This document shows positions 9,266 through 53,858 of a DNA stretch of 64,000 nt, piece after piece (position 1 is the first letter of the stretch; each line of letters starts with the position of its first letter). A program made the position numbers and the translations under genes. The notes under the pieces were generated by a model. It searched no databases. It had not been told where the DNA came from and saw nothing but the letters and a program-made list of their open reading frames with translations. Where the stretch lies: contig JAHJQN010000007.1 in NCBI GenBank assembly GCA_018819225.1, forward strand, positions 109,456 to 173,455, given 5' to 3'. The stretch is from Candidatus Micrarchaeota archaeon. Its GTDB lineage: Archaea; Micrarchaeota; Micrarchaeia; Norongarragalinales; SBBD01.

Positions 9266-9266
9266 C

Positions 9267-10010: not shown

Positions 10011-10011
10011 C

Positions 10012-10569: not shown

Positions 10570-10603
10570 TTAGCTTTTAATTCCGCTAACGAGAAACGCA
10601 TCC

Positions 10604-10903: not shown

Positions 10904-10948
10904 CGCTCGCGCAAAAGCCTCTTATTGCTTTACCTTCCCATACTTATC

Positions 10949-11602: not shown

Positions 11603-11656
11603 TCTGCGATGTAATGGCGCAACGCTTTTATTCCGGTTTCGCTTAGAGCAAACGAA

Positions 11657-11743
11657 ATGGCTTCTAAAAGCAAGATGTCTGCCAACGATTGGGCGTTCAT
11701 CGTCATTCTCATATCAACGCTTTACGTGCTATTCGCTCATTAG
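11657..11743 (+). CDS. Putative 28-aa single-TM microprotein
   Basis: MASKSKMSANDWAFIVILISTLYVLFAH; TTTTAT box ~25-30 nt upstream. Confidence 0.4.
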   Translation: MASKSKMSANDWAFIVILISTLYVLFAH

Positions 11744-11769
11744 GCAGCCCGTTCCAGTTTCATGCACGC

Positions 11770-12549: not shown

Positions 12550-12668
12550 AGCTTCACTAGTCGTCACTGCGGAGTGGTTTTTAAAGCTTTCTTTAATGGG
12601 GGCCTGATCCATTGTGATCCCGTTTTAACTCGCTTTTGACTATGCCTTTCCACCTATATAAATGTATC

Positions 12669-12683
12669 TACTATGTGATAGTA
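12669..12683. promoter_or_regulatory. Palindromic operator TACTAT-GTG-ATAGTA, candidate TrmB site
   Basis: Perfect 6-bp inverted repeat between divergent trmB and surface-protein genes, just upstream of the BRE/TATA at 12691-12705. Confidence 0.55.
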
Positions 12684-12759
12684 ACATCTACAAAAAGCTT
12701 ATATATTAGCTATTCCATATTGTTACTACTCTGTAATTGCGATATTGGTGGTCGATTTC

Positions 12760-14442: not shown

Positions 14443-14453
14443 GGTGGTAGCCG

Positions 14454-16576: not shown

Positions 16577-16627
16577 GGAGCGCATTAGTGACTACCCATT
16601 ATTATGTCTGTTGGTCTCCGCTTGAAC

Positions 16628-17032
16628 TTATCGGCGCTTCTTTAGTCGCGTGACGCGTTCGAGGAGTTTGCGGTGATGCTTGGTCACGCGTTCGTCGTAT
16701 TCCTCGACAGGGAAAACAATTTTTCCGCTTTGGTATATGATGAGTGCGACGGTCGCGAGTCCCAACCAGAACACGAAGCCCGCCAGCGGGCCCATCATGA
16801 CCCCGATGACATCCTCGTTACCAAATTCAAACGGAGCGGAAATCGCCCATCCGAACAACTGCGGGATCAAATTGGGATTCAATTGAGCGTAAACGATTTT
16901 GTTTGCGACGACGAAAATGCTGTACGAGGCTTCGGCGACCTTGAGCAAGGAGGCTGCAATGAGGAACGCGCCCGCGAGTTTCAGCAAGTGAACGCGCTGG
17001 CCGCCAATCTTGAACCACAGGATTCGGTACAT
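16628..17032 (-). CDS. Hypothetical membrane protein
   Basis: Two TM segments and a basic tail. Confidence 0.65.
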   Translation of the reverse strand: MYRILWFKIGGQRVHLLKLAGAFLIAASLLKVAEASYSIFVVANKIVYAQLNPNLIPQLFGWAISAPFEFGNEDVIGVMMGPLAGFVFWLGLATVALIIYQSGKIVFPVEEYDERVTKHHRKLLERVTRLKKRR

Positions 17033-17139
17033 AGGGGGATCTCACCGATTGCATTACTCGAGGTCCGTATATAAAGATTACGATTTTCCCCATCTCTCTT
17101 GTTTGAAACCTTTTAATATCCCGTATCCGAAACGTTAAC

Positions 17140-20100
17140 ATGCGCTGGATCATTCGAAAGTCCGTGTGGCGTCCCATCCTCTTGCTTCTCCTATTTTTAT
17201 TCAGCGCAGTCGTTATTGTTCAAGCGGAGTGGACGCATCGGTTGTCGGATGAGACCCGCGATCTTTCCATACCCGTTAGCAGCGCTATTGACATCAACAG
17301 CGAGCGCTGGCTGCGCGACGTCTACAGACCGTACACGCTCGTGGAACGCGGCGACTACTTTTACGGAAGTGGACGTCCATGCCCCGGGGGAGGGGTTTGC
17401 CACACTTATTTCACGAAACACGATAAAGCGTGCGGAAACATTGTCTGGGGTTCGAATCCGGGCAATGCGCTCTACAACGTCGTTTCTCACAGCTACGACG
17501 TCGTCGCTCTTGGAAACCGCGTCTACAGTGTTTTGGGCGGTCAATATCCGAGCATCTATTACCTTGTCGAAATGGATGAAAGCAACGGCAACTTGATAGC
17601 GAATTACGAATTGGATAACATCGTGAATTACGCGGGAGTCTATCGGCTCGTGACCGACGGAACGCGCGTCTACGCCTTTACGAGTTCGGGTTCCGGGCGT
17701 GTCCGCGTGAAAGCCTTCAACCATAACACGAAAACGTTTGATTGGACCATTGACTTTAACATTGATGATGTGAACAAGGGCGAGGTCAATTCCCAACCCG
17801 CCATCTTCCAAAACCAGCTCGTTTTCGTCGTGGATCACCATGAAGGCGGCGTAAACACTCATCACGGTCCCGCCACGTTATATTCCTTCAATAAAGATAC
17901 GGGCGCTCCGCTCTGGAGCCAAGTCCTTCACAATTCGGCGGAAAACGCGGCAACCGTTCAAATCGTTGTTCACAATAACAAAATCTTTTTGGATCGAAGA
18001 CGTTCAGGTTATTGGGACAAGCTTTCCTCTTACAATCCCTTGAACAACGGCGCATTGCTTTGGGGACCGTTCGACGATCTCGGAACGAATCTTGCCGCTT
18101 ACAATAACCTATTGTATGCTCGGATTCCCGGAGCCCAAGGCGTTCGGGCATTGAACGCGAACACGGGTAGCGTCATTTGGACGAATTCAGGTACCGACTG
18201 CGACTGGGGCCTGGTCTATTTGGCTGGTCCCAACGAACTGATTTGCATGCACCGGCATACCGCTACCTCGGTGTACTTGATTCGCGTGGACGCCAGCGAC
18301 GGCGACGCCATCGACACGACGGGTTTGATTCAATATAGCTCCAGCACTTTTGTTAGCAATGAATTGTTTGTGTTTTCCCCTGCAGACCCCTTCTTGCTTT
18401 TCCATTATCAGAACGGATTGGGTTCCGTTGGCGGTTCAACGCCTGACATCACCAGCATCTCGGTCAGCCCGCCATCCGCAACGGTTCCCGTATTCGGCAC
18501 GCGCCAGTTTACGGCGACGTGCGTGACCGAATGCGGTGATACTATTGAATGTCCTGCTCTCACATGGACCTCCACGATCGGATCCGTTGACAATACGGGG
18601 TTGTTTACAGCTGGTGCGACCACTGGAGTCGGCGTAGTACGCGCGTCTTACGGCGGCGTATTCGACGAAGCGGATATTACGGTTGTCGGATTACCGGTTT
18701 GCAGCGTTTGCACCGTAAACGGTAATTGCGCGTCCGGTTACTGCCGGGAGACGTTTGAAGGCGGAGTGAAACGATGTGCTCCGGATGCCACGAGTTGCGT
18801 CATAGACCAAAACAACAACTGCGATTATCCCGATGGATACGAGATGTGCTTCGGAAACGATTATTATCGGGAATGCGGCGCAAGCGGTTCCGGATTATGG
18901 GGGGCACCTAACAACTGTGATGACAGCGTGGATTACGAGGGATGCGATCCCGGTTCCGAAAACGAGGATTCTCACCCTGGCGCATCCTGCGGGTGGCGCG
19001 CACGCCCCGGAGAAACATGTACTTCTGGAATGGCGGGCGGTTGCTTCCCGGGTTCGTGGGGCTCTTGTCAAAACTGCGGCTCATTCATTTCCCAACCCTC
19101 GCACGACGCGTGCTATACCACGGGTCTTCCGTTCTGCGATGAAGGCTGCGGTGCGGAATGCGATGAAGACAGTGATTGCACCAACACCGAGCGATGTTAT
19201 GCAGCCAATGATATTTACCAAACTCGCGATGCATCGTGCTCAAATTCCTGCGCCTGTTCTTACGCGCCTTGGGAAAACGGAGCGTGTTCCGAATCCGTTG
19301 CACAATGCGGTGCGGAATGCGATGGCGATGAAGACTGCGATATTTACGATGACCGGTGCGTTGGCCGGTACTGGCGCGATTACGAAACCTCGCAAGGCAC
19401 ATGCAATACCGATCCGTCCGAGTGCGCGTGTACGCCGCCCGACTACGATCAATACTGTTGGGTCGGGCATTGCGGAGCGAACTGTGATGAAAACAGCGAT
19501 TGCACGGCGTATCCCGACGGAACGTGTTCCGCTTGCGGGTGCCGCTATCCTCCTGACGCATTAGCTGTCGTGAATTCACCGGGATTCCAGGGCCTGCCGG
19601 TTCCCATTCAAGGTGATGGTTGGGCGTATGGTGCAACCGTATCTCAACTGACGTGGTCCAAGCAAAGCGGTCCAGGTGGAAGTGATTGCGTGTTCGATGC
19701 GCCGGCTCTAAATCTCGGTTCTTCCCATGCTACGGCTCACGGAACCGTTACGTGCGATCAAGTCGGCGACTACGTGTTACGCCTGCTTGTTCGCGACAGC
19801 AATTCCCAAACGGATACCGATTCCGCCGCCCTTTCTCTTACCGATCCCGTCGGCGTGTGGGGAACCGTGCAAATCGTTCCACCTGCCAATACCGTCTATG
19901 CAGACAACTTGATTCGCTCGCAAACCTTTGAAGCATTATGCTTCGACAACGACGGCAACGGCATGGCGTGTCCTGCAGACCCTGTTTGGAGCTTAAGCGG
20001 GTTTGGAGCCGGAACCACGGCGTCTATTTCACCTCAAGCCAATCCCGTATTCGCTGATTTCTCCCATCAGAGCATTGATGTCTCAACGGCATCCGGAACC

Positions 20101-41364: not shown

Positions 41365-42372
41365 TTACGTGCGGACGTTTGCTTCCCTCAACTGCGCTAA
41401 TGTTTTCGATCGCGTGAGAAACATCGTCATCTTCAATTCATCCACAAACTGCCGAATGCGCTTTTCCACTCCCTTTTTGCCTCCTTGTTCCTGTGCCTGA
41501 ATGAATGGCATGGCTGCGGAAGCCAAGTGCGCTCCCGTCCGAATCGCTTTAGCCGCATCCAACCCCGACCGAATTCCGCCGCTCGCAATAATGGGAATGG
41601 AAACCGTTCGCTTACATTCCTTTACGCAATCCGCTGTCCGGTTCCCCCAATCCCAGAACACGTTTCCGGCATCCGCGCCATTCCGGTACAATTCGATGGC
41701 ACTCCACGATGTGCCGCCAACCCCCGAAACGTCAATGGCTTTAACCCCCACTTTCTCCAACTCGCTTGCCACTACGCCTTCAATGCCTGCCCCGGTTTCC
41801 TTGACGATGACCGGCACGGATAAAGTGGAGCACGTTTTTTCGATGGCTTTCAACGCCCCCCTCCAATTCCGATCCCCTTCCGTTTGAACCACTTCCTGCA
41901 ACGGATTCAAGTGAACGAACAATGCGTCGGCCTCCAGCCCGCTGACGAGTTTTTCAGCCGCTTTTACGCCGTATTCCCGCAATTGAACCGCACCAATATT
42001 CGCTCCCAAGAACACATCGGGGGCCGCATCCCGTACTTGAAACGTTTTCCGCATTTTCGCGTCTTCGAGCATGGCCCTCTGGGATCCTACCCCCAGCCCG
42101 ATATGGAAGGTCTGGCAGGCCTGCGCGAGGTCGCGATTAATCTGTTCCGCGTGGGCGTATCCTCCCGTCATCGAAGAAATGAATAACGGCGCAGACAACC
42201 GCTTTCCGAGGAACGAGATGGACGTATTGATTTCCTCGAAATCCATTTCCGGAAGCGCATAGTGCACGAACTCCATCCCATCGAAACCCGTGCCTCGCGT
42301 ACGCGCTTGAACGTCTTTCGTCAAAGCAATACGCACGTGATCGGCTTTACGACTCTCCGTTTTCCGGTTCAT
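41365..42372 (-). CDS. fni: Type 2 isopentenyl-diphosphate isomerase
   Basis: RKADH, SSMTGG, GVGSQR, HLNPLQE, KETGAG, GGTSW, SGGIR. Confidence 0.95.
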   Translation of the reverse strand: MNRKTESRKADHVRIALTKDVQARTRGTGFDGMEFVHYALPEMDFEEINTSISFLGKRLSAPLFISSMTGGYAHAEQINRDLAQACQTFHIGLGVGSQRAMLEDAKMRKTFQVRDAAPDVFLGANIGAVQLREYGVKAAEKLVSGLEADALFVHLNPLQEVVQTEGDRNWRGALKAIEKTCSTLSVPVIVKETGAGIEGVVASELEKVGVKAIDVSGVGGTSWSAIELYRNGADAGNVFWDWGNRTADCVKECKRTVSIPIIASGGIRSGLDAAKAIRTGAHLASAAMPFIQAQEQGGKKGVEKRIRQFVDELKMTMFLTRSKTLAQLREANVRT

Positions 42373-42421: not shown

Positions 42422-43654
42422 CTATTCGCCGGTTTCCCCCACGCGTTTTTCCCAGGTGTCCATGGTTTCTTCCTGCATGCCCTTTCCTGAAAACGTGATG
42501 TCCAACAAGTGTAGTCCGTTCTGGCTCCAGAACGCCATTAACTTCTTTTTCGATTCCTCGGATAAACACAATGCGGCGAGTGAATCGCCGCCGCCGGCTC
42601 CCGGCATCGTGCATACGAATGCTCCGCGCTCTTCACTTTCCTCGATCAGCGCCGACGCCTCATCGCTTTCAATGCCCGCTTTACTCTCGACTCCGAGTTG
42701 TTTCGTCAATTGCCTTCCTTTCGCGAATGCGTGCTTGAACTCCCGGAACGCGGTCATTTCCTCTTCGTACATCGCCACTTCCGGTGCCGAGCCCCGCCCG
42801 TCAAAAAACGCAGCCACTTCTCCATATTTTTGCGCGGATTTCCTCGACAAATCCCCCATCTTTTTTAACCATAACATGGCTTTATCGTTCTCCGCATTCA
42901 ATGCCTCCATGAGCAACAGAAACGCCTGTTCTTTCTTCTTCTCGAATGCATCCACTTTTTTTACTAAATCTCGCGTGTTCGCACTCTTTCCGGTATAGGC
43001 CATCGCGAGCCGCATTCCTTTAGGCATTTGAAGCGGTTCGCTTCGCTGATCCCATTCATTTCCCATCATCTCTTGAAATGAATGCCCCATGATTTCGTCC
43101 GAATACCGCGAATACGCGATGCTGCCATAACACGCACCCGCCACATCGATTCCGCTCCCGATTTTCTCTTGCGCAATAAAGTTTGCGTACTGCGCCAGTT
43201 TGTGAATCGCGTCCTTGTTTTCCTCCATGTCCAGTCCGTGTTCAAGGAACACGGCTGCAATGGTTGCCACGACCGCTGCGGCCGAACTCCCCATGCCCGT
43301 TTTCCGGTCTCCGGCGCCAAACGCGGGATCGTTCCACGTTTCCACGCGAATGCCACGAAATTCAATCTGTTTCCATTCGAAATACTTCAAGCACGCCTCG
43401 ACAGCTGCCCTCAGGAAACGCAGCTTTTTCTTCTCATCTTCATCGGCATCCAATTCCAGCGTCCCGTCGTTCCACACGCCCCATTCTTTTACATCGAGGG
43501 GAGGCGCCTCCAGAACGAATCGTTTTTCCAAGATTTTTTCCGCGAGCGCGAACACGCGCTTGTCGACGGCGGCCACATAGCTGATATTCGGCTTTTTGAG
43601 CACGGCGTACGCGCCGATCAACACGATTTTTCCGGGTGCGGACGCAATCGCCAT
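42422..43654 (-). CDS. Phosphomevalonate kinase, ERG8 (fungal/plant)-like
   Basis: SAPGK, KTGMGSSAA, IHKLAQ..AQEKIGSGIDVA...YGSI.Y.R, PGAGGGD. Confidence 0.88.
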   Translation of the reverse strand: MAIASAPGKIVLIGAYAVLKKPNISYVAAVDKRVFALAEKILEKRFVLEAPPLDVKEWGVWNDGTLELDADEDEKKKLRFLRAAVEACLKYFEWKQIEFRGIRVETWNDPAFGAGDRKTGMGSSAAAVVATIAAVFLEHGLDMEENKDAIHKLAQYANFIAQEKIGSGIDVAGACYGSIAYSRYSDEIMGHSFQEMMGNEWDQRSEPLQMPKGMRLAMAYTGKSANTRDLVKKVDAFEKKKEQAFLLLMEALNAENDKAMLWLKKMGDLSRKSAQKYGEVAAFFDGRGSAPEVAMYEEEMTAFREFKHAFAKGRQLTKQLGVESKAGIESDEASALIEESEERGAFVCTMPGAGGGDSLAALCLSEESKKKLMAFWSQNGLHLLDITFSGKGMQEETMDTWEKRVGETGE

Positions 43655-43664: not shown

Positions 43665-44666
43665 TCAAAACAAGTGCTGTTTCAGTTCCACGGGTCCGTT
43701 TCCCACTTTACACACCATCACGTTTTCCACTCCCGAGATCTCCGACAGCATTTTTCGTATCGTGGAAACCCGCTTGTCTTCCGTGAAAACGTGCGCGTTC
43801 GGGCCCGCATCGAACGTGTATCCGGCAACGGCTTCCCCGTACGCATCGTTCAACGCATGCACGGTTTCGATGACTTTATGTGAGTGCTCATTCATGTAAA
43901 ACAAGGGAGGATACGAATCGAGCATGCACGCGTGCATACTATTACTATCCCGCATGACGAGCTCGAACAATTCGGCCCGATTCTTTTCCTCCAATGCTTT
44001 ACGCACCCGCTGTAAAATAATGCTGATGCTTTGCAACCGGCGCTGGTACAACGTGCTCGTGAGTACGGTGCGGTTCATGCCCGGTCGCGTGAGGATTCGT
44101 TTCGGATCTTTTTTCACGATCGCGATCACGTTCCGCAAGCTCTTCCAATGCGCGGCCGGCGACAGGGGTTCGGCTAGCGAGTCGCTCCCGTCATCGCGTT
44201 CCCCGCGATGCCATTCGACGAATCCTCCAAACAATGATCGGCACGCGGATCCCGATCCCCTTCGAGAGATAACGGAGAGCTCTCGAACGCCCATCTTCAA
44301 TCCCAAGGCGTGCGATGCCGCTAGCGTGAGCGCTGCGTATCCGGATGCGGAAGAGGCCATCCCCGCTGCCGATGGAAACGCGTTTTCCGTCACGATTCGT
44401 GCATACTCCTTGTTTCCCGCCTTGTGCCTCAGGATATCGAGCTGTTCCACGACGCGGTGCCGTTCGCTCCCCTCTAGTTTTCGTTCTCCGAGCGTGACCT
44501 CATCCTGTTTGTACTTCGACGAGAATTCGACCGTGGTTTCCGTTTTGAGCTGTTCGTCCATGGTGACGGAAATGCTTCCATTCGCCGGAAGGTTGAGTTG
44601 GGCATCCCGTTTCCCCCAATACTTCACGAGTGCAATGTTAGATGTTGCTCGAAACGTGCTCTTCAA
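43665..44666 (-). CDS. mvaD: Diphosphomevalonate decarboxylase
   Basis: NIALVKYWGKRD, AAGMASSASG, GSGSACRS, DSNSMHA..LDSYPPLFY, YTFDAGPN. Confidence 0.92.
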   Translation of the reverse strand: MKSTFRATSNIALVKYWGKRDAQLNLPANGSISVTMDEQLKTETTVEFSSKYKQDEVTLGERKLEGSERHRVVEQLDILRHKAGNKEYARIVTENAFPSAAGMASSASGYAALTLAASHALGLKMGVRELSVISRRGSGSACRSLFGGFVEWHRGERDDGSDSLAEPLSPAAHWKSLRNVIAIVKKDPKRILTRPGMNRTVLTSTLYQRRLQSISIILQRVRKALEEKNRAELFELVMRDSNSMHACMLDSYPPLFYMNEHSHKVIETVHALNDAYGEAVAGYTFDAGPNAHVFTEDKRVSTIRKMLSEISGVENVMVCKVGNGPVELKQHLF

Positions 44667-44710: not shown

Positions 44711-45478
44711 TTATAGGGTTTTCTTTACGGGGTTTCTGATCCACCCCATCACTTCGTTCGGATGATCCATTCGAATCATCCCTTTTTGTTCCGCATAAAC
44801 TCCGTACCCCCAATCCGCAAAGAAGAGTTGAATGTCCGGATCCACGTCGTACACGACTTCCAGGTTATGCATTAAATCGTCCACGAATGCGTACGCGCCC
44901 TTCCCCAACGTTTTCTTCAGCAAGCGAACCTGTTTCTGCTTCACCATGCGATCCGCCCGACTCACCTCGGTTCCGGCCACCGCTTCCATGCACTCCTCGA
45001 TACGGAAATGCGTTAACCAACCTTGAATACTGGCTTCATCGCGCGCGCTCATCACCGCTTGTTTCGCTCCCGATGCGTGAATCGCGCGCACCGCTTCCAG
45101 TACTCCGCTGTACGGCGCCATGGATTCCGCGTATTGTTTTCCCCATTCATCCGCCACACGCTGCCGCGTCCGATAATATGTTTCGTCCAAGTGCACGAGC
45201 AGCTCGCCGTATTGCGCATCCACTTCATTCAATCGAATCGCTTTCCCGAATTTTCTTCTCGCCACATAATTCACGAAGAAGTCCCGCGCGTTCACGCACA
45301 CCGGCCGATCGTTCTTGAACTCATCAAAGGAATATGGCGCCAACGGTTTTCCAACGGCTTCCTGCAACGTCGCTTCTTCCTGTTCCACGACGCGCCGCGT
45401 GATCTCGTAACACTCGTTCAAGCTGTCCGCCAATACCCCGTCAAAATCCCACAGAACATGCATTCGCTTCGTTTCCAT
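44711..45478 (-). CDS. HAD-superfamily hydrolase
   Basis: WDFDGVLAD motif I, SAR, K, FVDD, WGY. Confidence 0.85.
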   Translation of the reverse strand: METKRMHVLWDFDGVLADSLNECYEITRRVVEQEEATLQEAVGKPLAPYSFDEFKNDRPVCVNARDFFVNYVARRKFGKAIRLNEVDAQYGELLVHLDETYYRTRQRVADEWGKQYAESMAPYSGVLEAVRAIHASGAKQAVMSARDEASIQGWLTHFRIEECMEAVAGTEVSRADRMVKQKQVRLLKKTLGKGAYAFVDDLMHNLEVVYDVDPDIQLFFADWGYGVYAEQKGMIRMDHPNEVMGWIRNPVKKTL

Positions 45479-45533
45479 CCGCTCTTACTTCAACCCTACC
45501 GCTTTTTATTTCCTTTTTATGCTTCTTATTTTC

Positions 45534-46583
45534 ATGAAGAAAGTCGTGAGCAGTGCGCCCTCCAAACTCATACTCGTCGGCGAACATGCCGTCGTGTACG
45601 GAGCCCGAGCACTCGCGTGCCCGTTGAACAACCGAAAGGAGTGTACCGCGACGATCGAGACCGTGGAACCCGGCGAGGGTCAACTGATTGTGGAAGACGT
45701 GATCGGGTGCGGCCGCGTCACCGTTGACGGCGTCGTATTCGAGGAAGACCCGTATTTCATGCCGAAAGCCAAACTCATACTTCATTTCCTCAAAAAGAAC
45801 AAGAATCGGCTGAACGACAAGGAAGCGTTCTTCAAGTTTTCCAGCAAACGCATTCTGAAAGGTACGGGAGGGTCTGCCGCATCCGCCGCCGCACTCTCTC
45901 TCGCTCTTCACGCCTTGTTGGATATCCAACCCTCTTTGGAAGAACTCTTTCGTTCGGTTCAGGTTGCGGAAGAAATCGCGCACGGCGGCAAGGCAAGCGG
46001 TATTGATGCGCATACGGTTCTGTCCGATCGGCCTCAAGCCTTCTTCAAGCAGTTCAAAGGTTCGACGAGTTCGATTCGTTTCGAGGACGCGGACCTTCAT
46101 CTTCCGGAAGGCACGCAACTCGTCATCATTAATACGCTTGAAGAAGGCGAGGAACCGGAGTCCACGGGTGAACTAGTGAAACGTTTCGCCGCTCACTTTC
46201 ACGTGGACGGTTCTCCGAACGATCTTTCCGATGACACCCGCCAAACCATCATTGCGCCGTTCGATCGCGTCACCGAAGCGATTCAAAAAGAGCTTCGACG
46301 TGACGGAGAGGCAAAAGCCCTTGGAAGACTCTTGGATGAAAATCACGAGTTATTGAGGTCTACCGGCGTATCCGGCGACCGCATCGAGGAAGCCATTGCG
46401 CTTTGTAAGAAAAACAAGGCGCTGGGAGCTAAGTTAACGGGAGCGGGTGGTCGAGGGGGAGCGTGTTTTGCATTGGTGCGAAACCAGGATACCGAAACGC
46501 TCGTTCACGCCCTCGAGGAGAAACGGTTCGAGGTCAGCCCTGCGGAATTTTCGTCCAAAGGGCCTACGGTGGAACGCCGTTAA
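45534..46583 (+). CDS. mvk: Mevalonate kinase
   Basis: APSKLILVGEHAVVYG, GTGGSAA, HGGKASGID, KLTGAGGRGG. Confidence 0.88.
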   Translation: MKKVVSSAPSKLILVGEHAVVYGARALACPLNNRKECTATIETVEPGEGQLIVEDVIGCGRVTVDGVVFEEDPYFMPKAKLILHFLKKNKNRLNDKEAFFKFSSKRILKGTGGSAASAAALSLALHALLDIQPSLEELFRSVQVAEEIAHGGKASGIDAHTVLSDRPQAFFKQFKGSTSSIRFEDADLHLPEGTQLVIINTLEEGEEPESTGELVKRFAAHFHVDGSPNDLSDDTRQTIIAPFDRVTEAIQKELRRDGEAKALGRLLDENHELLRSTGVSGDRIEEAIALCKKNKALGAKLTGAGGRGGACFALVRNQDTETLVHALEEKRFEVSPAEFSSKGPTVERR

Positions 46584-46588: not shown

Positions 46589-47629
46589 TCATTTCGGGTA
46601 CAACACGATTTTACCGCAATTCCCGCTCGTCATGAGCGCGAACGCTTTCCCGTATTCCTCGAGCTTGAATTCATGCGTCACGAGTTGGTTGAGATCGACT
46701 TTCCCGCTCCGCAGGAACGCTTTGACTTTATGCCACGTTTCGAAAAGCCTCCTTCCGGTGATTCCTCTCACGGTGGCCTGCTTAAACACGACGGCATTTG
46801 TGACGTCTAATGAAACGGATTTCCCGAATACGCCAAGAATGGCCGCATTCCCTCCGGGACGCATGCTCTTGAATCCTTGCTGGAGCGCCTTTTCATTCCC
46901 TGACATTTCGAGGAAAACGTCTACTCCGCGCTTGGTCTCCTTGAGAATCCGTTTAGCCGCATTCTCTGTTGTCGCGTTGATTACATAGTCTGCTCCAAAC
47001 GATTTCGCCATCTTCAAGCGGTACTCGTTTTGATCCACGGCGAAAATATTCGTGGCTCCAGCAACCTTGCAAAGTTGGATGGCGCATAATCCGATGGGTC
47101 CGCACCCGAAGATGCTGACCTGGTTTCCTGCAATGGGCTGCGCGAACACCGCATGCACGGCGTTACCCAATGGTTCCTGTACGGTTGCCAGCTTGGGCGG
47201 AAGCCTTCGATCATTCTGGATGCAGCTGTTTTCCGGTAGTGAAATGTATTCTGCATAGCTTCCGTTCCTGTCGATTCCTAGAATCTTCAAGTGTTCGCAG
47301 ATGTGGGCGTTCGCGATGCGGCATTGGAAACAATTATAGTCCGCGAGATGCGTTTCGCCGCTCACGTAATCCCCTACGTTCACTTTCGATACGAGTTCGC
47401 CGACTTCCACGATGTCCCCGCAGAACTCGTGACCGAATATCCGCGGCGTTTTCACGCGGCTTTTCGCCCAATCATCCCAATGGTAGATGTGCAGGTCGGT
47501 TCCACAAATGCTCGTCGCCTTGATTTTTACGAGGACGTCCCTCGCGCCGAGTTTCGGAATGTCCGTTTGCGTCCACTCCGCTCCCGGCGCCGGTTTTTTC
47601 TTCATGAGCGCTTTCATTTTCCCTTCCAT
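46589..47629 (-). CDS. tdh: L-threonine 3-dehydrogenase
   Basis: SICGTDLHIYHWDDWA, GHEF, VSGETH, EPLGNAVH, EMSG, GITGRRLFETW. Confidence 0.93.
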   Translation of the reverse strand: MEGKMKALMKKKPAPGAEWTQTDIPKLGARDVLVKIKATSICGTDLHIYHWDDWAKSRVKTPRIFGHEFCGDIVEVGELVSKVNVGDYVSGETHLADYNCFQCRIANAHICEHLKILGIDRNGSYAEYISLPENSCIQNDRRLPPKLATVQEPLGNAVHAVFAQPIAGNQVSIFGCGPIGLCAIQLCKVAGATNIFAVDQNEYRLKMAKSFGADYVINATTENAAKRILKETKRGVDVFLEMSGNEKALQQGFKSMRPGGNAAILGVFGKSVSLDVTNAVVFKQATVRGITGRRLFETWHKVKAFLRSGKVDLNQLVTHEFKLEEYGKAFALMTSGNCGKIVLYPK

Positions 47630-47778
47630 TTTACATCCCTGCAATCCGCGTTTTCGGATGAGGGACTCGGAGTCTACGACTTAAAATATCTTTACCTCTT
47701 CGACACGCGTCAAACTTTTTATTGAGGCGATTGTTTTTTAAAACGCGAATGGCTTCTTGCCATGCATAGTGTTTTTTT

Positions 47779-48960
47779 ATGGCTGATCTGTCGTTTCTCG
47801 CGCAAGAAGTCAAGGCCCTTCGAGAAAAGAAGTTGGACTGGCGCCATTACACGTTGGAAAGCCCGTCGGTTCCGCACGCGCAAGTCAATGGAAAGAACGT
47901 CCTCATGCTCTGCTCGAACAATTATTTGGGGTTCGCGAACCATCCGAAGCTGAAAGCGGCAGCGAAGCAAGCCATTGACCAATACGGGGCCGGAAACGGA
48001 AGCGTTCCCGCTATTGCCGGCACCATGGACCTCATGCTAACCCTCGAAGAAAAACTGGCGAAATTCAAACGGTCGGAAGCCGCGTTAGTCACTCAAACCG
48101 GTTTTGCAGCGAACGCCGGTTTGATTCCGCAACTCGTCGGAAAAGGCGACCTCATTATTTCAGACGAACTCAACCACGGAAGCATTATTGACGGCGTGAG
48201 GTTGAGCCAGGCCGACCGAGCGGTCTTCAAGCACGCCGACGCAACGGATTTGGATCGCGTTCTTAAAGAGAAAGCGAAAACCGCTCGCCGCGTTCTGGTT
48301 TGCACGGACGGCGTTTTTTCCATGGACGGCGACGTCGCCCCTTTGAAAGAGATTTATTCCGTTGCCAGCGCCTACGACGCCATCGTTTACGTGGATGACG
48401 CGCACGGCGACGGGGTCATGGGCCCCGAAGGCCGCGGCACCATTCACCACTACCATCTCGAGAACCAAATCGATGTGGATGTCGGCACGTTCAGTAAAGC
48501 GTTTGGCGCTTTTGGCGGCTATGTATCCGGCATTCATGCGCTGAAAGAATTTACGTTCAATAAAAGTCGAACGTGGCTGTTATCCGCAGGCCATCCGCCT
48601 TCGGTATGGGCGTCCGTAATGGCCTCCATTGAATTATTGGAGTCGGAGCCCCAACACCTCAAAACATTGTGGGATAACACTCATTATTTCAAGAAACGCC
48701 TGCGAGAAATGGGTTTCAATACCGGTCGTTCCACGACTCCGATCACGCCCGTCATTGTCGGAGAGAGTGCGGTCGCGCATCATTTGAGCCAACGCTTATT
48801 TCAGGAAGGCGTGTTTGCTTTACCGATCGTGTTCCCAATGGTGGCGCGCGATCAAGCGCGTGTCCGCGTCATGATGAATGCCGCGCTTTCAAGATCCGAT
48901 CTCGATTTTGCATTGAATGCGTTCGAGAATATCGGAAAAGAGCTTCAAATCGTTTCGTGA
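47779..48960 (+). CDS. kbl: 2-amino-3-ketobutyrate CoA ligase (glycine C-acetyltransferase)
   Basis: CSNNYLG, SDELNHGSIIDG, DGVFSMDG, DDAH, GTFSKA; divergent from tdh. Confidence 0.85.
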   Translation: MADLSFLAQEVKALREKKLDWRHYTLESPSVPHAQVNGKNVLMLCSNNYLGFANHPKLKAAAKQAIDQYGAGNGSVPAIAGTMDLMLTLEEKLAKFKRSEAALVTQTGFAANAGLIPQLVGKGDLIISDELNHGSIIDGVRLSQADRAVFKHADATDLDRVLKEKAKTARRVLVCTDGVFSMDGDVAPLKEIYSVASAYDAIVYVDDAHGDGVMGPEGRGTIHHYHLENQIDVDVGTFSKAFGAFGGYVSGIHALKEFTFNKSRTWLLSAGHPPSVWASVMASIELLESEPQHLKTLWDNTHYFKKRLREMGFNTGRSTTPITPVIVGESAVAHHLSQRLFQEGVFALPIVFPMVARDQARVRVMMNAALSRSDLDFALNAFENIGKELQIVS

Positions 48961-49325
48961 ACCGCATGTTAAAAACAAACGTACACGCGCAAATCGTTAC
49001 AGTGCTATTCGATATCGAGAAGCTACCGATTCCCGGGAAAGCGCGTGAGCGCCTCCGGCAGTTCCGTTCGGCTTTTCCTGTCCGAGACGCCTTCCGGGCT
49101 TCTCGAGGCAATATTGTTCTCGTTAATTGGTTCAAACCCTTGCATGAGGACGCGGTCGTCGCTTACCTGGAAGCTGTACGGGGTTGGCCGTTGACCCGCA
49201 TTCAAGAACAGTTCGCTCGCATGGACGTAGATACCCAAGTCAATCAGGCGTTGATTCGAAATCAGGAGAAGGTGCTTGGATTTTACGAGCGTTTTTCCGC
49301 GCGTCTCCAGCAAACGCTTTCTTAA
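48957..49325 (+). CDS. Hypothetical protein
   Basis: GTGA-coupled to kbl; no motif recognised. Confidence 0.5.
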   Translation: MNRMLKTNVHAQIVTVLFDIEKLPIPGKARERLRQFRSAFPVRDAFRASRGNIVLVNWFKPLHEDAVVAYLEAVRGWPLTRIQEQFARMDVDTQVNQALIRNQEKVLGFYERFSARLQQTLS

Positions 49326-50586
49326 TTCCCTGTTTCCAAAGAAGTTCTTTGGCTCGTTCGCCACGAATATTTCCTTCCTTAACCATTTGCTGCGCCACGC
49401 GCTCCACATCCTTACCGGTGGCGCCGGCGGCCATGGCCACGTTTCGTGCGTGCAACGCCATGTGTCCTTTTTGAATGCCTTCCGTACTCAGCGCTCTCAT
49501 GGCCGCAAAGTTCTGCGCCAATCCGACACACGCCGCAATTTCTCCGAGTGCTCCCGCTGTTTTCACTTGTAAAATTTTCAAAGAGAGTTGTGCGAGGGGA
49601 TGCGTTCGCGTGACGCCTCCCACTATTCCGACCGCGATCGGAATTTCAATCGAGCCTTTCAAATCCCCGGTCCCCGTTTTCTCCCAATGCGTCAACGGGC
49701 CATACGGTTTTTGAAACGCCGCATAACTATGCGCTCCGGATTCGACGGCTCGAAAATCGTTCCCCGTTGCCATCAGCACCGAATCCACGCCGTTCATGAT
49801 CCCTTTATTGTGAGTGGTCGCGCGAAACGCGTCATGCACCGCCAAGTCGTACGCATCCAATACCCCTTCAATGACGGGGCTTCCCACGATTTCCTTTTTC
49901 CATGTGGCATGGGCCTTCACCACGCGTTCGGGACACAAGTTGCTGAGAATGCGCACGCGTTTTTTTCCTCCTGAAATATCTTCAAGCTTCGGCGCCATGG
50001 TTTCGCACATCGTGTTGACCGCGTTCGCGCCCATGGCGTCCTTTACATCCACTGCAACTTCAACCAGCACCATTTGGCCTCGATTTCCTTGAAGGATGCG
50101 CACCGTGATCTCTTTCGCACCCCCGCCAAGTTTCAGGAGCGTGGAATCGCGTTGGTTCACCAAATCCAATAACGTCGCCTTTTCCTCCAAAATTTTTTCA
50201 CGCGTTGTTTCCGGATTCTTTACGCCGACTAACTGGATTTGTCCCCGCATGAGTGATGGTCCTGCGCGTGCCGTAAATCCTTCTTCGAAACACAGTTTGG
50301 CCCCATGCGATGCCGCCGCTATGACGGACGGTTCCTCGGTGACCATGGGAACGAGTACTTCCCGTCCATTGATTTTGAAGTTCGCGGCTATTCCGTACGG
50401 GAGCGAAAACAGTCCCACGCAGTTTTCAATCATCTTATCTGCCGTCTCCAGCGTCAGACTCCCTTCTTTTTTCAACAAGGCTATATCGGGTTCGCTGAGC
50501 TTCGCTTCCTTTTCAAGTATCTTCCATCGCTCCCCCAGGCTCTTCTTGTAAAATCCTTCGAGTCTCGAGCTAACCATGGCCTTCAT
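49240..50586 (-). CDS. mvaA: HMG-CoA reductase, class II (NADH-type signature)
   Basis: MIENCVG, TEEPSVIAAAS, DAMGAN, THNKGIMNG, GIQKGHMALH. True stop may be near 49322. Confidence 0.93.
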   Translation of the reverse strand: MKAMVSSRLEGFYKKSLGERWKILEKEAKLSEPDIALLKKEGSLTLETADKMIENCVGLFSLPYGIAANFKINGREVLVPMVTEEPSVIAAASHGAKLCFEEGFTARAGPSLMRGQIQLVGVKNPETTREKILEEKATLLDLVNQRDSTLLKLGGGAKEITVRILQGNRGQMVLVEVAVDVKDAMGANAVNTMCETMAPKLEDISGGKKRVRILSNLCPERVVKAHATWKKEIVGSPVIEGVLDAYDLAVHDAFRATTHNKGIMNGVDSVLMATGNDFRAVESGAHSYAAFQKPYGPLTHWEKTGTGDLKGSIEIPIAVGIVGGVTRTHPLAQLSLKILQVKTAGALGEIAACVGLAQNFAAMRALSTEGIQKGHMALHARNVAMAAGATGKDVERVAQQMVKEGNIRGERAKELLWKQGIKKAFAGDARKNARKIQAPSPDFESTPD

Positions 50587-50728: not shown

Positions 50729-51775
50729 ATGACTGTAGGCATCATAGGTTATGGAACGAGCATTCCCAAGCTGCGCATCAAGGTAGAGGAAATTGCGTCC
50801 GTATGGGGAAAGAACGCGGAACGCGTATCCAGCGGATTGGGAATCAAGGAAAAGGCCGTAGCCTCATTCGATGAAGATTCCGCGACGCTTGCCGTAGAAA
50901 GCGCGCGCGTCGCCATTCAAAGCGCGGGCATTCGCGCGCAAGATATTGGCGCGATTTTCGTGGGCAGCGAAAGCAAACCGTATGCCGTCAAACCCACGGC
51001 CGCCATCGTGGCCGAGGCAGTCGCCGCGGTACCCGATTTAACTGCTGCTGATTTCGAGTTCGCCTGCAAAGCAGGAACCACGGCCATTCAATGCTGCATG
51101 GGCCTTTCTGCCAGCCAATACATCCAATACGGTTTGGCTATTGGGTCGGATACCGCGCAAGGACGCCCGAATGATGCGCTCGAGTTTTCTGCCGGAAGCG
51201 GTGCGGCTGCTTTCGTCATCGGTACCGAGAAACCCATTGCAGAAATTGAAGCCACTTTCAGTTATACCACGGATACCCCGGATTTCTGGAGGCGCCAGCA
51301 CGCGGAGTTTCCGCGTCACGCCGGCCGCTTTACTGCGGGCCCCGCCTATTTCAAGCACACTTTAGGCGCAGCCAACGGGCTCATGAACAAACTGGGCACG
51401 CAGCCCAAGGATTACGCGTTTGCAGTATTCCATCAACCCAACGGCAAGTTTCCGTACCGCGCGGCATCCATTCTCGGATTCGAGAAGGAAAAAATCGAGT
51501 CCGGTCTCCTGACCCCGATGATCGGGAACACGTATAGCGCAGCCACCCTCATCGGTTTATCCGCGGTTCTCGACATTGCCAAGCCAGGCGACCGCATTCT
51601 CGTCACTTCGTACGGAAGCGGTGCTGGAAGCGACGCATTCAGCATAACGGTCACGAAAGAAATCACGAAAAAGGCGCGACGTCAACCCGTTCCGGTCTGG
51701 GAACAAATAAATAATAAAAAGTATGTTCCATACGCGATTTACGCGAAACACCGGAAAAAACTGAAAGGCATGTGA
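50729..51775 (+). CDS. HMG-CoA synthase (archaeal type)
   Basis: GSESKPYAVKP, EFACKAGT, DFWRR, FHQPNGKFP, GNTYS, SYGSGAGSD. Confidence 0.93.
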   Translation: MTVGIIGYGTSIPKLRIKVEEIASVWGKNAERVSSGLGIKEKAVASFDEDSATLAVESARVAIQSAGIRAQDIGAIFVGSESKPYAVKPTAAIVAEAVAAVPDLTAADFEFACKAGTTAIQCCMGLSASQYIQYGLAIGSDTAQGRPNDALEFSAGSGAAAFVIGTEKPIAEIEATFSYTTDTPDFWRRQHAEFPRHAGRFTAGPAYFKHTLGAANGLMNKLGTQPKDYAFAVFHQPNGKFPYRAASILGFEKEKIESGLLTPMIGNTYSAATLIGLSAVLDIAKPGDRILVTSYGSGAGSDAFSITVTKEITKKARRQPVPVWEQINNKKYVPYAIYAKHRKKLKGM

Positions 51776-51781: not shown

Positions 51782-51988
51782 ATGAAACACTCGACTTCCT
51801 TGAAACTGGCCCGACACGGCGCTAAACTATTCTTGAGCATGACGGTCGCGGCGGCCTACCTTTACCTTTTCGATTCCATGGATTTTTTCAAGTGGATCGC
51901 GGCAGCGTTTTTAATTTCTTTGGCGTTCCTCATCCATCCGAACGTGGAACGCTTGTTCGAAGAAACCTTTGAAATCATCGAGCCGTGA
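51782..51988 (+). CDS. Small two-TM membrane protein
   Basis: 68 aa hydrophobic ORF inside the operon. Confidence 0.6.
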   Translation: MKHSTSLKLARHGAKLFLSMTVAAAYLYLFDSMDFFKWIAAAFLISLAFLIHPNVERLFEETFEIIEP

Positions 51989-51992
51989 ATTT

Positions 51993-52295
51993 ATGTTCAA
52001 CTACGCGGAATTCCTGAAGCCAACGCCCGCGAGGCTCGCGGTATTCCTCCTGCTGTTCGTCGTCGGAGGCTACTTCAGTTTCTTCATTTTCTTTTCGGGA
52101 ACGTTCGGAGGCCGCCCGACGTACGGATTTCCGTTGGGCATGCTCACTCCCGACTGCAATTTCCCGAGCGGCACAAAGATCTACTGTCCTCCCCCCACGG
52201 AATTTCATTTCCTCGGATTTATCGGCAACCTCGTTTTCTGGTATTTGGTTTCCGCATTACTTGTCTTTGCTTACGAAAAAATGGTGAAGAAATGA
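51993..52295 (+). CDS. Small membrane protein with a Cys-pair loop
   Basis: FLKPT-TM, GFP..C..C loop, second TM; ATGA-coupled to thiolase. Confidence 0.65.
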   Translation: MFNYAEFLKPTPARLAVFLLLFVVGGYFSFFIFFSGTFGGRPTYGFPLGMLTPDCNFPSGTKIYCPPPTEFHFLGFIGNLVFWYLVSALLVFAYEKMVKK

Positions 52296-53455
52296 GAAGC
52301 GTATCCGTCATCGGCGCGGGCCTATCGAAATTCGGCGAACGCTGGGAGACCTCGTTCCGCGAACTCATTTACGAAGCCTCACTGAACGCCATGGAGGACG
52401 CGCGCATCGAAGGCAAGGACATCCAGGCGCTTTACGGAGGCAGCATGGCTCCCGGCCGACTGATCGGCCAAGAACACATCGGCGCGCTCATCGCTGACCA
52501 GCTTGGCTTGAACCCCATCCCCTCCGTTCGAGTGGAAGCGGCGTGTGCTTCCGGAGGCGTTGCGTTACGCCAAGCCTATCACGCCATCGCATCGGACGCG
52601 TACGACATCGTGGCCGTCGGCGGAGTCGAAAAAATGACGGAGGTCTCCACGGAAGAAGTGGCGACTGCGCTCGGCGGAGCCGGTGACCAGGAATGGGAAC
52701 TCTTTCTCGGCGCCACCTTTCCAGCGATTTACGCGTTGATGGCCCGCCGTCACATGTTGGAATACGGTACGACCGAAGAACAAATGGCGTTGTGCAGTGT
52801 CAAGAACCACGCGAATGCCGTTCACAATCCGTACGCGCAATACCGGAAAGCGATTTCCGTTGAACAGGTCATGGAGAGCGGCTACATCGCCGAACCCCTG
52901 AAGCTTTTGGATTGTTCTCCGATTACCGATGGAGCCGCTGCATTGATTTTGTGCGCGTCCGACATGGCCAAAAAGTACTCGGATACTCCGATTCATATTG
53001 CCGCCAGCGCGCAAGCCTCGGATACGCTGGCATTAGATGATCGCCGCACGCTTTCCGCTCTCGAGGCTACACGGTATGCCGCGAAAGAAGCATTCAAGCA
53101 AGCGAAGATGACGCCGAAAGACATTCCTTTAGCGGAGGTTCATGATTGTTTTTCGATTGCGGAAATCATGGCGATCGAGGACCTCGGATTCTTCAAGAAA
53201 GGAAAAGGAGGGAAAGCCGTTCAAGACGGTGAAACCCAGCTGAACAGCCGCCTTTCAATTAATACCTCTGGTGGACTCAAGGCCTGCGGCCATCCCGTTG
53301 GCGCCACCGGAATCAAGCAAGCAGTGGAAATCACGTGGCAATTACGCCAACAAGCCGGAAAGCGTCAAGTCGCCAATGCGGAAGTGGGGTTGGCGCACAA
53401 CGTTGGAGGCTCGGGCGCCACGGCCGTTGTTCACATTTTCAAGAGGGGCGATTGA
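52292..53455 (+). CDS. Acetoacetyl-CoA thiolase (archaeal type)
   Basis: EAACASG, KNHAN, DCSPITDG, EVHDCF, GHPVGATG, HNVGGSG. Confidence 0.93.
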   Translation: MRSVSVIGAGLSKFGERWETSFRELIYEASLNAMEDARIEGKDIQALYGGSMAPGRLIGQEHIGALIADQLGLNPIPSVRVEAACASGGVALRQAYHAIASDAYDIVAVGGVEKMTEVSTEEVATALGGAGDQEWELFLGATFPAIYALMARRHMLEYGTTEEQMALCSVKNHANAVHNPYAQYRKAISVEQVMESGYIAEPLKLLDCSPITDGAAALILCASDMAKKYSDTPIHIAASAQASDTLALDDRRTLSALEATRYAAKEAFKQAKMTPKDIPLAEVHDCFSIAEIMAIEDLGFFKKGKGGKAVQDGETQLNSRLSINTSGGLKACGHPVGATGIKQAVEITWQLRQQAGKRQVANAEVGLAHNVGGSGATAVVHIFKRGD

Positions 53456-53456
53456 T

Positions 53457-53858
53457 ATGGTAGGTACCCAACCCCTGATTTGGCGCCGAATACCGGAACG
53501 GTACCGATTGCACGGAAGCAAGTGTCTTACCTGCAACGCCGAGTTCTTCCCGCAACGCCAGTTTTGTCCCAATTGCCGCCGCAAAGGAAAACTCGTCAAA
53601 GAACACATGCCGATGGACGGAACCATTTACTCCTATACTTATGTTCATTCGGCTCCCGAAGGCTTCGAGTACCACGTCCCCTATTTTATGGCCATCATCG
53701 AGCTCAAAAACGGGGTGCGACTCATGTCCCAACTCGCGGACAGCGAACCCGAATCCGTTAAAATCAATGCGTCGGTTCGCATGGTGTTTCGGCGCGTGCA
53801 CGAGAGCGAAGCAGAAGAAGCTATTGCTTACGGCTATAAATTCAAAGTCGTCGATTAA
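53457..53858 (+). CDS. DUF35 Zn-ribbon/OB-fold scaffold of the thiolase-HMGCS complex
   Basis: WRRIPERYRL.GSKC..C...FFPQR.FCP.C, IAYGYKF. Confidence 0.92.
   Translation: MVGTQPLIWRRIPERYRLHGSKCLTCNAEFFPQRQFCPNCRRKGKLVKEHMPMDGTIYSYTYVHSAPEGFEYHVPYFMAIIELKNGVRLMSQLADSEPESVKINASVRMVFRRVHESEAEEAIAYGYKFKVVD

What the first reader, a model, noticed from the sequence alone, without database searches (positions are those of the whole stretch)
46589..50586. Candidate threonine-fuelled isoprenoid module: tdh/kbl embedded in the mevalonate cluster next to an NADH-type HMG-CoA reductase
Seen: divergent tdh and kbl lie between mvk and the HMGR gene, in the middle of the MVA cluster. The class II HMGR reads VNQRDSTLLKLGGG (Asp codon 50146-48). 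Established: Tdh + Kbl convert Thr to Gly + acetyl-CoA + NADH. NADH-preferring class II HMGRs (Pseudomonas mevalonii, ANRKDQLLNSLGGG as recalled) carry Asp here, whereas NADPH-type Firmicute enzymes read roughly YPSIxxRGGG. Inference: 3 Thr give 3 acetyl-CoA + 3 NADH, and one mevalonate needs 3 acetyl-CoA + 2 NADH. The locus could thus supply its own carbon and reducing power from a scavenged amino acid, which would suit a metabolically reduced DPANN symbiont. I know of no description of this coupling but cannot verify novelty.
Basis: partly seen in the sequence, partly recalled or inferred. Interest (0 to 1): 0.88.

Follow-up and report, generated by a model that had tools for sequence, protein, structure and literature searches.

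The report
Threonine-breakdown genes inside mevalonate cluster
Two ordinary genes that split threonine into glycine and acetyl-CoA really do sit in the middle of this tiny archaeon's isoprenoid (mevalonate) gene cluster, but comparison with relatives suggests an inherited insertion rather than a dedicated threonine-to-lipid module.

Summary
The HMGR Asp (codon 50146-50148) aligns with P. mevalonii D146.

- For: the tdh-kbl-HMGR order holds in all 11 genomes (4 genera) of the window's family. One MAG of another family (G018) independently has a non-homologous SDR-type Tdh plus Kbl between HMGS and HMGR.
- Against: in the rest of the order, and in about 100 Kbl-bearing genomes of the phylum, the tdh-kbl pair lies away from HMGR, and MVA clusters there lack it.
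- In the window the pair is convergent with both neighbours and has its own divergent promoter region.
- AspRS shows the same family-only adjacency, so synteny by descent is enough to explain the pattern.
- The Asp occurs in 11 of 12 HMGRs read across the order, including genomes without tdh or kbl.
- The genome also encodes a PDH complex, an ADP-forming acetyl-CoA synthetase and TCA genes, so threonine is not its only acetyl-CoA source.

Best reading: this is a standard threonine-catabolic cassette feeding general pools, with MVA one possible consumer. Interest is modest.

The parts
41365..42372 (-). type 2 IPP isomerase (IDI2)
   Evidence: TIGR02151 397 bits, cut-off 281
42422..43654 (-). 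GHMP kinase, probable phosphomevalonate kinase
   Evidence: The best NCBIfam hits are PMK models, all below their cut-offs. Position next to MDD is conserved in the order.
43665..44666 (-). diphosphomevalonate decarboxylase
   Evidence: TIGR01240 301 bits, cut-off 171; Pfam MVD-like_N and MDD_C
44711..45478 (-). HAD-family hydrolase inside the cluster, role unknown
   Evidence: Pfam HAD_2. Conserved at this position in L020, L023 and L029.
45519..46583 (+). mevalonate kinase
   Evidence: TIGR00549 144 bits (cut-off 163); GHMP N and C domains. Its end is 5 bp from the end of tdh, and the two genes are convergent.
46589..47644 (-). Zn-dependent, NAD-type L-threonine 3-dehydrogenase. The true start is probably the Met at residue 10.
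   Evidence: NF003808 435 bits, above the cut-off of 380. PDB 3gfb, 2d8a and 2dfv at E about 1e-110. The Cys, His-Glu and Glu-Pro zinc motifs, GCGPIG and an Asp at the end of Rossmann strand 2 are all aligned.
47645..47778 (.). 134-bp divergent intergenic region between tdh and kbl: the cassette's own two-way promoter region (inferred)
   Evidence: AT-rich, TATA-like stretches are seen in the sequence. The divergent tdh/kbl layout is conserved across the phylum.
47779..48960 (+). 2-amino-3-ketobutyrate CoA ligase (glycine C-acetyltransferase, Kbl)
   Evidence: NF005394 448 bits (cut-off 460); TIGR01825 511 bits (cut-off 535). PDB 7poa E 6e-119, 1fc4 E 1.5e-79. The PLP-lysine SKA motif is aligned. 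Most full-length Kbl loci of the phylum have a Tdh gene adjacent.
48957..49325 (+). small conserved ORF (122 aa) that overlaps the kbl stop by 4 bp and runs antisense into the HMGR 3' end; function unknown
   Evidence: 39% identity, E 8e-34, to the ORF after kbl in G045 (L022:2119-2529). No Pfam family.
49240..50586 (-). class II HMG-CoA reductase with the NADH-type Asp (codon 50146-50148)
   Evidence: TIGR00532 407 bits, cut-off 260. 1qax E 6e-131, with the Asp aligned to D146. Cofactor-helix sequence is DSTLLKL.
50729..51775 (+). archaeal-type HMG-CoA synthase
   Evidence: NF003274 540 bits, cut-off 244
52292..53455 (+). acetoacetyl-CoA thiolase
   Evidence: NF004720 592 bits, cut-off 420
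53455..53858 (+). DUF35 / BbsA-like small subunit (start approximate)
   Evidence: NF053627 hit. Relatives align from about residue 55-65 of the long ORF 53271-53858.

Best explanation
This is a standard, self-contained threonine-catabolic cassette that sits, by inheritance, at a junction inside the mevalonate cluster of one family of Micrarchaeota.

Mechanism (inferred from family membership). Tdh oxidises L-threonine with NAD+ to 2-amino-3-ketobutyrate. Kbl cleaves that with CoA to glycine and acetyl-CoA. Glycine goes to the glycine-cleavage system and SHMT. Acetyl-CoA and NADH enter the cell's common pools, alongside acetyl-CoA from the PDH complex.

From those pools the neighbouring thiolase/HMGS/DUF35 enzymes and the probably NADH-preferring HMGR can draw. 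So can the TCA enzymes and the ADP-forming acetyl-CoA synthetase.

The cassette has its own divergent promoter region and is convergent with mvk and with HMGR. Nothing in the window ties its expression to the MVA genes. Threonine can therefore contribute carbon and reducing power to isoprenoids, but as one source among several, not as a dedicated module.
For: The tdh-kbl pair is a conserved unit in most loci across the phylum, with either a Zn-type or an SDR-type Tdh. Most of the time it lies far from MVA genes. This holds for the unlinked loci L011-L018 in the order, for 20 class-level loci with no MVA gene in the flanks, and for about 100 Kbl-bearing genomes with no Kbl within 15 kb of HMGR.

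Intact MVA clusters without the pair exist in five other families: L019, L020, L021, L023, L024.

The junctions flanking HMGR carry other, unrelated genes elsewhere: HATPase-like, membrane transporter, riboflavin kinase, SdpI-like and PEP-utiliser genes.

AspRS is adjacent to the DUF35 end of the cluster in family f1 only. That is the same distribution as the tdh-kbl linkage, so shared descent suffices to explain it.

The own genome has PDH E1a, E1b, E2, E3 and LipA, an ACD alpha subunit, ACL-like genes, aconitase and IDH. It also has SHMT and GcvT and GGGPS.

The HMGR Asp is in 11 of 12 HMGRs read across the order, including genomes without tdh or kbl.
Against: The tdh-kbl-HMGR order has survived in all four genera of the family while other genes were inserted around it. 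In genus g2, 1.4-2.3 kb were added between kbl and HMGR, and mvk lies at least 8.7 kb away.

One MAG of another family (G018) independently has an SDR-type Tdh and Kbl exactly between HMGS and HMGR. Each gene there is co-directional with an MVA gene run. Its Kbl nests with unlinked Kbl genes of its own family, not with f1.

No expression data could be obtained.
Confidence: 0.55

Rival explanations
1. One reading: a selected metabolic module. Scavenged threonine is converted next door into the acetyl-CoA and NADH that the thiolase/HMGS/HMGR steps consume. Gene proximity is maintained by selection, for co-regulation or for co-inheritance as a unit.
For: The linkage is kept in 11 genomes of 4 genera despite local rearrangements.

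There is a second, independent association in G018, with a non-homologous Tdh and a different lower MVA pathway. There the two genes head the two divergent MVA gene runs.

The own genome lacks thrC, so its threonine is probably imported.

The HMGR has the NADH-type Asp.

Threonine is the main carbon source for lipid and sterol synthesis in procyclic T. brucei through the same two enzymes (PMC4034587, PMC5993337), so the physiology has a precedent.
Against: The pair is unlinked in most relatives.

The G018 layout is a singleton. None of 80 metagenome loci with SDR-Tdh relatives has an MVA gene nearby. Its congener G017 lacks the pair.

Once the window's own case is set aside as the reason for looking, one further hit among roughly 18 other contexts has about a 1 in 8 chance under random placement (my estimate).

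The pair is convergent with both neighbours in the window.

PDH or a POR-type enzyme, plus ACD in most of them, is present in every linked genome checked.

The Asp is not specific to linked genomes.

thrC is present in 3 of 11 family members.
Confidence: 0.27
2. The pair runs in reverse as a threonine-making route: glycine + acetyl-CoA + NADH gives threonine. This would serve a genome that lacks threonine synthase. Its place beside the MVA genes would then reflect shared use of acetyl-CoA.
For: No thrC was found above cut-off in the own genome, which is 90% complete, nor in 8 of 11 family members. SHMT and GcvT could supply glycine. Reversibility of the coupled Tdh/Kbl reaction has been reported in E. 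coli (Marcus & Dekker 1993; my own knowledge, not checked here).
Against: Known Tdh-Kbl pairs act catabolically. Three family members keep both thrC and the linked pair. No direct evidence of direction can be had from sequence.
Confidence: 0.08
3. The PLP enzyme is not a Kbl but a BioF-like or other alpha-oxoamine synthase, so the locus does not release acetyl-CoA from threonine.
For: Both Kbl-specific NCBIfam models score just below their cut-offs (448 against 460; 357 against 493). The best PDB match is the dual-named AONS/KBL enzyme 7poa.
Against: The gene sits beside a threonine dehydrogenase of either structural type in most of the loci examined across the phylum. That is the signature of Kbl. 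The bioF model scores lower, relative to its cut-off, than the best Kbl model NF005394 (383 against 426).
Confidence: 0.05

Closest known systems
Bacterial kbl-tdh threonine-degradation gene pair (E. coli kbl-tdh operon; my own knowledge)
   Same: The same two enzyme families are adjacent, and the reaction is the same: Thr to Gly + acetyl-CoA + NADH. Archaeal Zn-type TDHs of Thermococcus and Pyrococcus are the closest solved relatives.
   Different: Here the genes are divergent rather than co-transcribed. They lie inside an MVA cluster. In relatives the Zn-type Tdh is often replaced by an SDR-type Tdh at the same position.
Threonine as main carbon source for fatty-acid and sterol synthesis in procyclic Trypanosoma brucei (PMC4034587, PMC5993337)
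   Same: The physiological logic is the same: TDH plus 2-amino-3-ketobutyrate CoA ligase give acetyl-CoA that ends up in mevalonate-derived lipids.
   Different: That case is a eukaryote with an SDR-type mitochondrial TDH. It was shown by labelling and knock-downs, and there is no gene clustering. Here there is only gene adjacency and no flux data.
NADH-dependent class II HMG-CoA reductases (P. mevalonii, B. cenocepacia, D. acidovorans, R. pomeroyi; A. fulgidus uses both coenzymes)
   Same: There is 440-bit similarity to 1qax. The Asp lies at the D146 / D154 position, whose charge controls the choice between NADH and NADPH.
   Different: Cofactor-helix position 3 is Thr, not Val or Leu. The enzyme sits in a biosynthetic archaeal cluster, not a mevalonate-catabolic operon. 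Coenzyme use has not been assayed.
Micrarchaeota MVA gene sets described in PMC5864196 and PMC8975820
   Same: Micrarchaeota are known to encode MVA genes, PDH complexes and, in some lineages, Thermoplasma-type (variant III) lower-pathway genes.
   Different: Neither paper mentions threonine dehydrogenase or Kbl ('threonine' occurs 0 times in both). The adjacency itself appears not to have been described in the literature I could search.

Membership tests
Zn-dependent L-threonine 3-dehydrogenase (MDR superfamily) | Scores above a curated equivalog cut-off | tested here: met
   NF003808 435 bits, above 380. TIGR00692 430 bits is just under its 458 cut-off.
Zn-dependent L-threonine 3-dehydrogenase (MDR superfamily) | Catalytic zinc ligands and an NAD-type Rossmann motif | tested here: met
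   The alignment to 3gfb and 2d8a shows the Cys (SICGTD), His-Glu (GHE) and Glu (QEPLGN) motifs, GCGPIG, and an Asp where the Pyrococcus enzyme has the NAD-selecting Glu. The first structural-zinc Cys is Asp here.
2-amino-3-ketobutyrate CoA ligase (Kbl) | Scores above a curated Kbl equivalog cut-off | tested here: not met
   NF005394 448 bits against 460. TIGR01822 357 against 493. TIGR01825 subfamily 511 against 535. These are narrow misses, and the G018 ortholog passes NF005394 (472).
2-amino-3-ketobutyrate CoA ligase (Kbl) | PLP-lysine motif, and a genomic partner that is a threonine dehydrogenase | tested here: met
   The SKA lysine motif aligns with 7poa. A Zn- or SDR-type Tdh is adjacent in most full-length Kbl loci examined.
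Class II HMG-CoA reductase, NAD(H)-preferring type | Class II fold and conserved catalytic motifs | tested here: met
   TIGR00532 407 bits, above 260. The EEPS, NKGIMNG, GND-RA and GHMALHARN motifs are identical or near-identical to 1qax.
Class II HMG-CoA reductase, NAD(H)-preferring type | Cofactor-helix motif D-x-(V/L)-x-x-x-L (Miller & Kung, quoted in PMC13488460) | tested here: inconclusive
   The sequence is DSTLLKL. Asp at position 1, Leu at 4 and Leu at 7 fit the motif. Position 3 is Thr, not Val or Leu.
Class II HMG-CoA reductase, NAD(H)-preferring type | Measured preference for NADH over NADPH | not testable with these tools
   This needs an enzyme assay.
Functionally coupled gene cluster (Thr catabolism + MVA) | Shared transcription unit or co-directional arrangement | tested here: not met
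   In the window tdh is convergent with mvk (5-bp gap). kbl, with its small downstream ORF, is convergent with HMGR. Only in G018 are the genes co-directional with MVA genes.
Functionally coupled gene cluster (Thr catabolism + MVA) | Linkage conserved beyond close relatives, or recurring independently | tested here: inconclusive
   The linkage is conserved in family f1 (4 genera). There is one independent recurrence (G018, a single MAG). It is absent in the other families of the order and in the phylum sample.
Functionally coupled gene cluster (Thr catabolism + MVA) | No alternative acetyl-CoA source (needed for the 'self-supplying' claim) | tested here: not met
   PDH complex and ACD are present in the own genome. 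A POR-type enzyme and ACD are present in G045 and G018.

The most novel reading that the evidence does not exclude
In some Micrarchaeota, threonine taken from the host or environment is a preferred feedstock for isoprenoid lipid synthesis. Selection has twice pulled a Tdh-Kbl pair (once Zn-type, once SDR-type) into the mevalonate cluster. There its acetyl-CoA and NADH output matches the needs of the thiolase/HMGS complex and an NADH-using HMGR. This would be a prokaryotic, genomically hard-wired counterpart of the threonine-to-sterol route of trypanosomes.
Probability: 0.25. Interest if true: 0.6.

Novelty: new member of a known kind. Interest (0 to 1): 0.3.

Why it matters
If the coupling were real, it would name a specific nutrient (threonine) that links a DPANN symbiont's membrane synthesis to its host. 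It would also offer a compact, redox-balanced NADH-driven route to mevalonate for engineering.

As it stands, the locus mainly shows three things. Micrarchaeota of this family keep a full classical MVA pathway and GGGPS. They have several acetyl-CoA sources. And conserved adjacency within one family can arise by descent alone, as the AspRS control shows.

Tried and rejected
- Unique acetyl-CoA source. Rejected: a PDH complex, ACD and ACL-like genes are present. No POR-type and no AMP-forming ACS gene was found in the own genome.
- HMGR Asp as a co-adaptation to Tdh. Rejected: the Asp is present in HMGRs of genomes without tdh or kbl.
- Complementary distribution of PDH and tdh-kbl in the order. 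Not seen. PDH E2 is in 12 of 26 Kbl-positive genomes and 6 of 42 Kbl-negative ones.
- Uniform threonine auxotrophy of the family. Not supported: thrC is over the cut-off in 3 of 11 genomes.
- Replication of the G018 layout in metagenomes. None of 80 loci has an MVA gene nearby.
- Genome-contig scan with the HMGR. It returned only distant bacterial loci and one archaeal locus, none with tdh or kbl.
- The sigma-70 promoter and terminator scan is not informative for an archaeon.
- A shared operator between the tdh/kbl and HMGR/HMGS intergenic regions was looked for by eye only. Nothing obvious was seen, and it was not tested formally.


Full report
**What is there.** ORF listing and family scans give a complete mevalonate cluster. 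In order it reads: IDI2, a probable PMK, MDD, a HAD hydrolase (all on the - strand), MVK (+), a Zn-type L-threonine 3-dehydrogenase (-), a Kbl-type PLP acyltransferase (+), a class II HMGR (-), archaeal HMGS, thiolase and a DUF35-like protein (+).
- Tdh passes the NF003808 cut-off (435 against 380 bits).
- Tdh is about as close to the solved Thermococcus and Pyrococcus TDHs as orthologs usually are (E about 1e-110). The catalytic zinc motifs, GCGPIG and an NAD-selecting acidic residue are all present.
- Kbl misses its curated cut-off narrowly (448 against 460 bits) but keeps the PLP-lysine motif.
- The HMGR aligns end to end with P. mevalonii HMGR (E 6e-131). Its Asp147 (codon 50146-50148) aligns with D146.

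**The organism.** The window lies in a 1.37-Mb assembly of 8 contigs, 90% complete. I did not test that label independently.

**The cofactor argument.**
- PMC13488460 quotes the Miller & Kung cofactor-helix motifs: Dx(V/L)xxxL for NADH enzymes and (H/Y)xSxxxR for NADPH enzymes.
- PMC12292504 shows that replacing the equivalent Asp154 of the R. pomeroyi enzyme with Lys raises NADPH activity 53.7-fold.
- The window reads DSTLLKL. Asp, Leu4 and Leu7 fit the NADH type, and position 3 is Thr. NADH preference is therefore likely but unassayed.
- The Asp is not special to this locus. It is present in 11 of the 12 HMGRs I read across the order, including genomes that have no tdh or kbl at all (G006, G010, G020, G056). 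The one exception, G018, reads GDVIIKL.
- So the Asp is a lineage trait, not a co-adaptation to a neighbouring NADH producer.

**Is threonine the cell's own carbon supply?** No, not exclusively.
- The genome encodes PDH E1 alpha, E1 beta, E2, E3 and lipoyl synthase in one block.
- It also encodes aconitase, isocitrate dehydrogenase, ATP-citrate-lyase-like subunits and an ADP-forming acetyl-CoA synthetase alpha subunit.
- No POR-type or AMP-forming ACS gene was found.
- SHMT and GcvT are present, so the glycine by-product can be used.
- thrC is missing here, which fits import of threonine. It is present above cut-off in 3 of 11 family members.
- GGGPS is present, so the isoprenoids plausibly go into ether lipids.
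- Linked genomes that lack PDH (G045, G018) have a POR-type enzyme and ACD.

**Synteny within the family.** I searched the order (68 genomes) with Tdh, HMGR and Kbl and read 20 loci.
- In the window's family (f1: 11 genomes, 4 genera) every genome is consistent with the order tdh(-) kbl(+) ... HMGR(-) HMGS(+), allowing for contig breaks.
- Other genes have been inserted around the pair. In genus g2, 1.4-2.3 kb lie between kbl and HMGR, carrying SdpI-like and PEP-utiliser genes. In that genus mvk lies at least 8.7 kb from tdh.

**Synteny outside the family.**
- Five other families have contiguous MVA clusters without the pair (L019, L020, L021, L023, L024).
- In genera g14, g20, g21, g22 and g31 the tdh-kbl pair sits elsewhere with no MVA gene nearby (L011-L018).
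- In a 401-genome sample of the phylum, 113 genomes have Kbl and 288 have HMGR. Outside the order the two are never closer than about 16 kb.
- Twenty class-level Kbl loci show a Tdh (Zn- or SDR-type) beside Kbl in 15 cases and no MVA gene in any.

**A control for inheritance.** AspRS lies next to the DUF35 end of the cluster in f1 and nowhere else. That is exactly the same distribution as the tdh-kbl linkage, for a gene with no plausible link to isoprenoids. Family-wide adjacency alone is therefore not evidence of coupling.

The junctions next to HMGR also hold unrelated cargo in other families: HATPase-like, transporter and riboflavin-kinase genes.

In the window the cassette occupies a convergent junction. 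tdh ends 5 bp from mvk. kbl, plus a small conserved ORF, runs head-on into the HMGR 3' end. This is the least disruptive kind of insertion site, and it leaves the cassette on its own 134-bp divergent promoter region.

One MAG of another family (G018) carries, between HMGS and HMGR, an SDR-type threonine dehydrogenase and a Kbl. The SDR enzyme matches 2yy7 at E 5.6e-108 and 3a1n at E 4.7e-107.
- Each gene is co-directional with one of the two divergent MVA gene runs.
- The lower pathway there is of the Thermoplasma type: mevalonate-3-kinase-like, M3P-5-kinase-like and bisphosphomevalonate-decarboxylase-like genes, all below curated cut-offs.
- The Kbl tree places G018's Kbl with unlinked Kbl genes of f8 and f10 (100/99 support), apart from both f1 clades. 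This is a separate event.
- It is a singleton, however. Its congener G017 has the classical cluster without the pair.
- None of 80 metagenome loci carrying relatives of the SDR-Tdh has an MVA gene in the flanks.
- By my rough estimate, about 11 junctions out of about 1,500 genes lie in the cluster, and there are about 18 other distinct contexts. One further chance landing in an MVA cluster then has a probability near 1 in 8, once the window's own case is set aside as the reason for looking.

**Verdict.** The genes, their order and the Asp are real.
- The most economical account is an ordinary threonine-catabolic cassette, lodged by descent inside the MVA cluster of one family and feeding general acetyl-CoA, NADH and glycine pools (about 0.55).
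- A selected threonine-to-isoprenoid module remains possible (about 0.27). It has a physiological precedent in T. brucei (PMC4034587, PMC5993337).
- Neither Micrarchaeota paper I read mentions threonine.
- Reverse operation as a threonine-making route (about 0.08) and mis-assignment of Kbl (about 0.05) are minor rivals.
- No transcript data could be obtained.

Noticed in passing
L010 (G018:C14) 4550-17725: One MAG has a remodelled MVA cluster. On one strand: DUF35, thiolase, HMGS, SDR-Tdh. On the other: Kbl, an unknown 373-aa ORF, HMGR, then Thermoplasma-type lower-pathway candidates (M3K-like, M3P5K-like, MBD-like, all below NCBIfam cut-offs) and two HAD genes. Its congener G017 (L028) keeps the classical PMK/MDD cluster. 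Variant-III genes in Micrarchaeota are known (PMC8975820). Their physical fusion with HMGR and Kbl was not mentioned there.
   Followed up: partly
L018 (G030) 7696-9999 compared with L013 (G031) 3064-5435: Within one genus the Zn-type Tdh beside Kbl has been replaced, at the same genomic site, by a non-homologous SDR-type Tdh. Both types are scattered beside Kbl across the phylum.
   Followed up: partly
window 48957-49325 (+): A 122-aa ORF overlaps the kbl stop (GTGA) and runs antisense over the last 85 bp of HMGR. It is 39% identical (E 8e-34) to the ORF after kbl in G045. It has no Pfam family.
   Followed up: partly
window 44711-45478 (-): A HAD-family hydrolase is conserved between MDD and MVK in several families of the order (L020, L023, L029). 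Its role in the pathway is unknown.
   Followed up: no
window 42422-43654 (-): The presumed phosphomevalonate kinase scores below the cut-off of all three PMK models (archaeal, ERG8-type, Gram-positive). This DPANN lineage therefore has a classical PMK+MDD route with a divergent PMK.
   Followed up: no
G000:C8:26027-38893 (L026): One block holds aconitase, NADP-IDH, ATP-citrate-lyase-like beta and alpha subunits, and PDH E3, E2, E1 beta, E1 alpha and lipoyl synthase. This is a sizeable central-carbon island for a 1.37-Mb genome.
   Followed up: partly
window 47320-47380 (Tdh residues about 95-115): The first of the four structural-zinc cysteines of archaeal TDHs is Asp in this Tdh, while the other three are kept (alignment).
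   Followed up: no
G011:C9:19651-22220 and G048:C15:2324-4835: Two genomes of the order carry two HMGR genes in tandem.
   Followed up: no
window 51969-52295 (+): A 108-aa ORF lies between HMGS and thiolase and overlaps the thiolase start. It has a 33%-identical counterpart in G043 (L030 4043-4321). No family hit.
   Followed up: no
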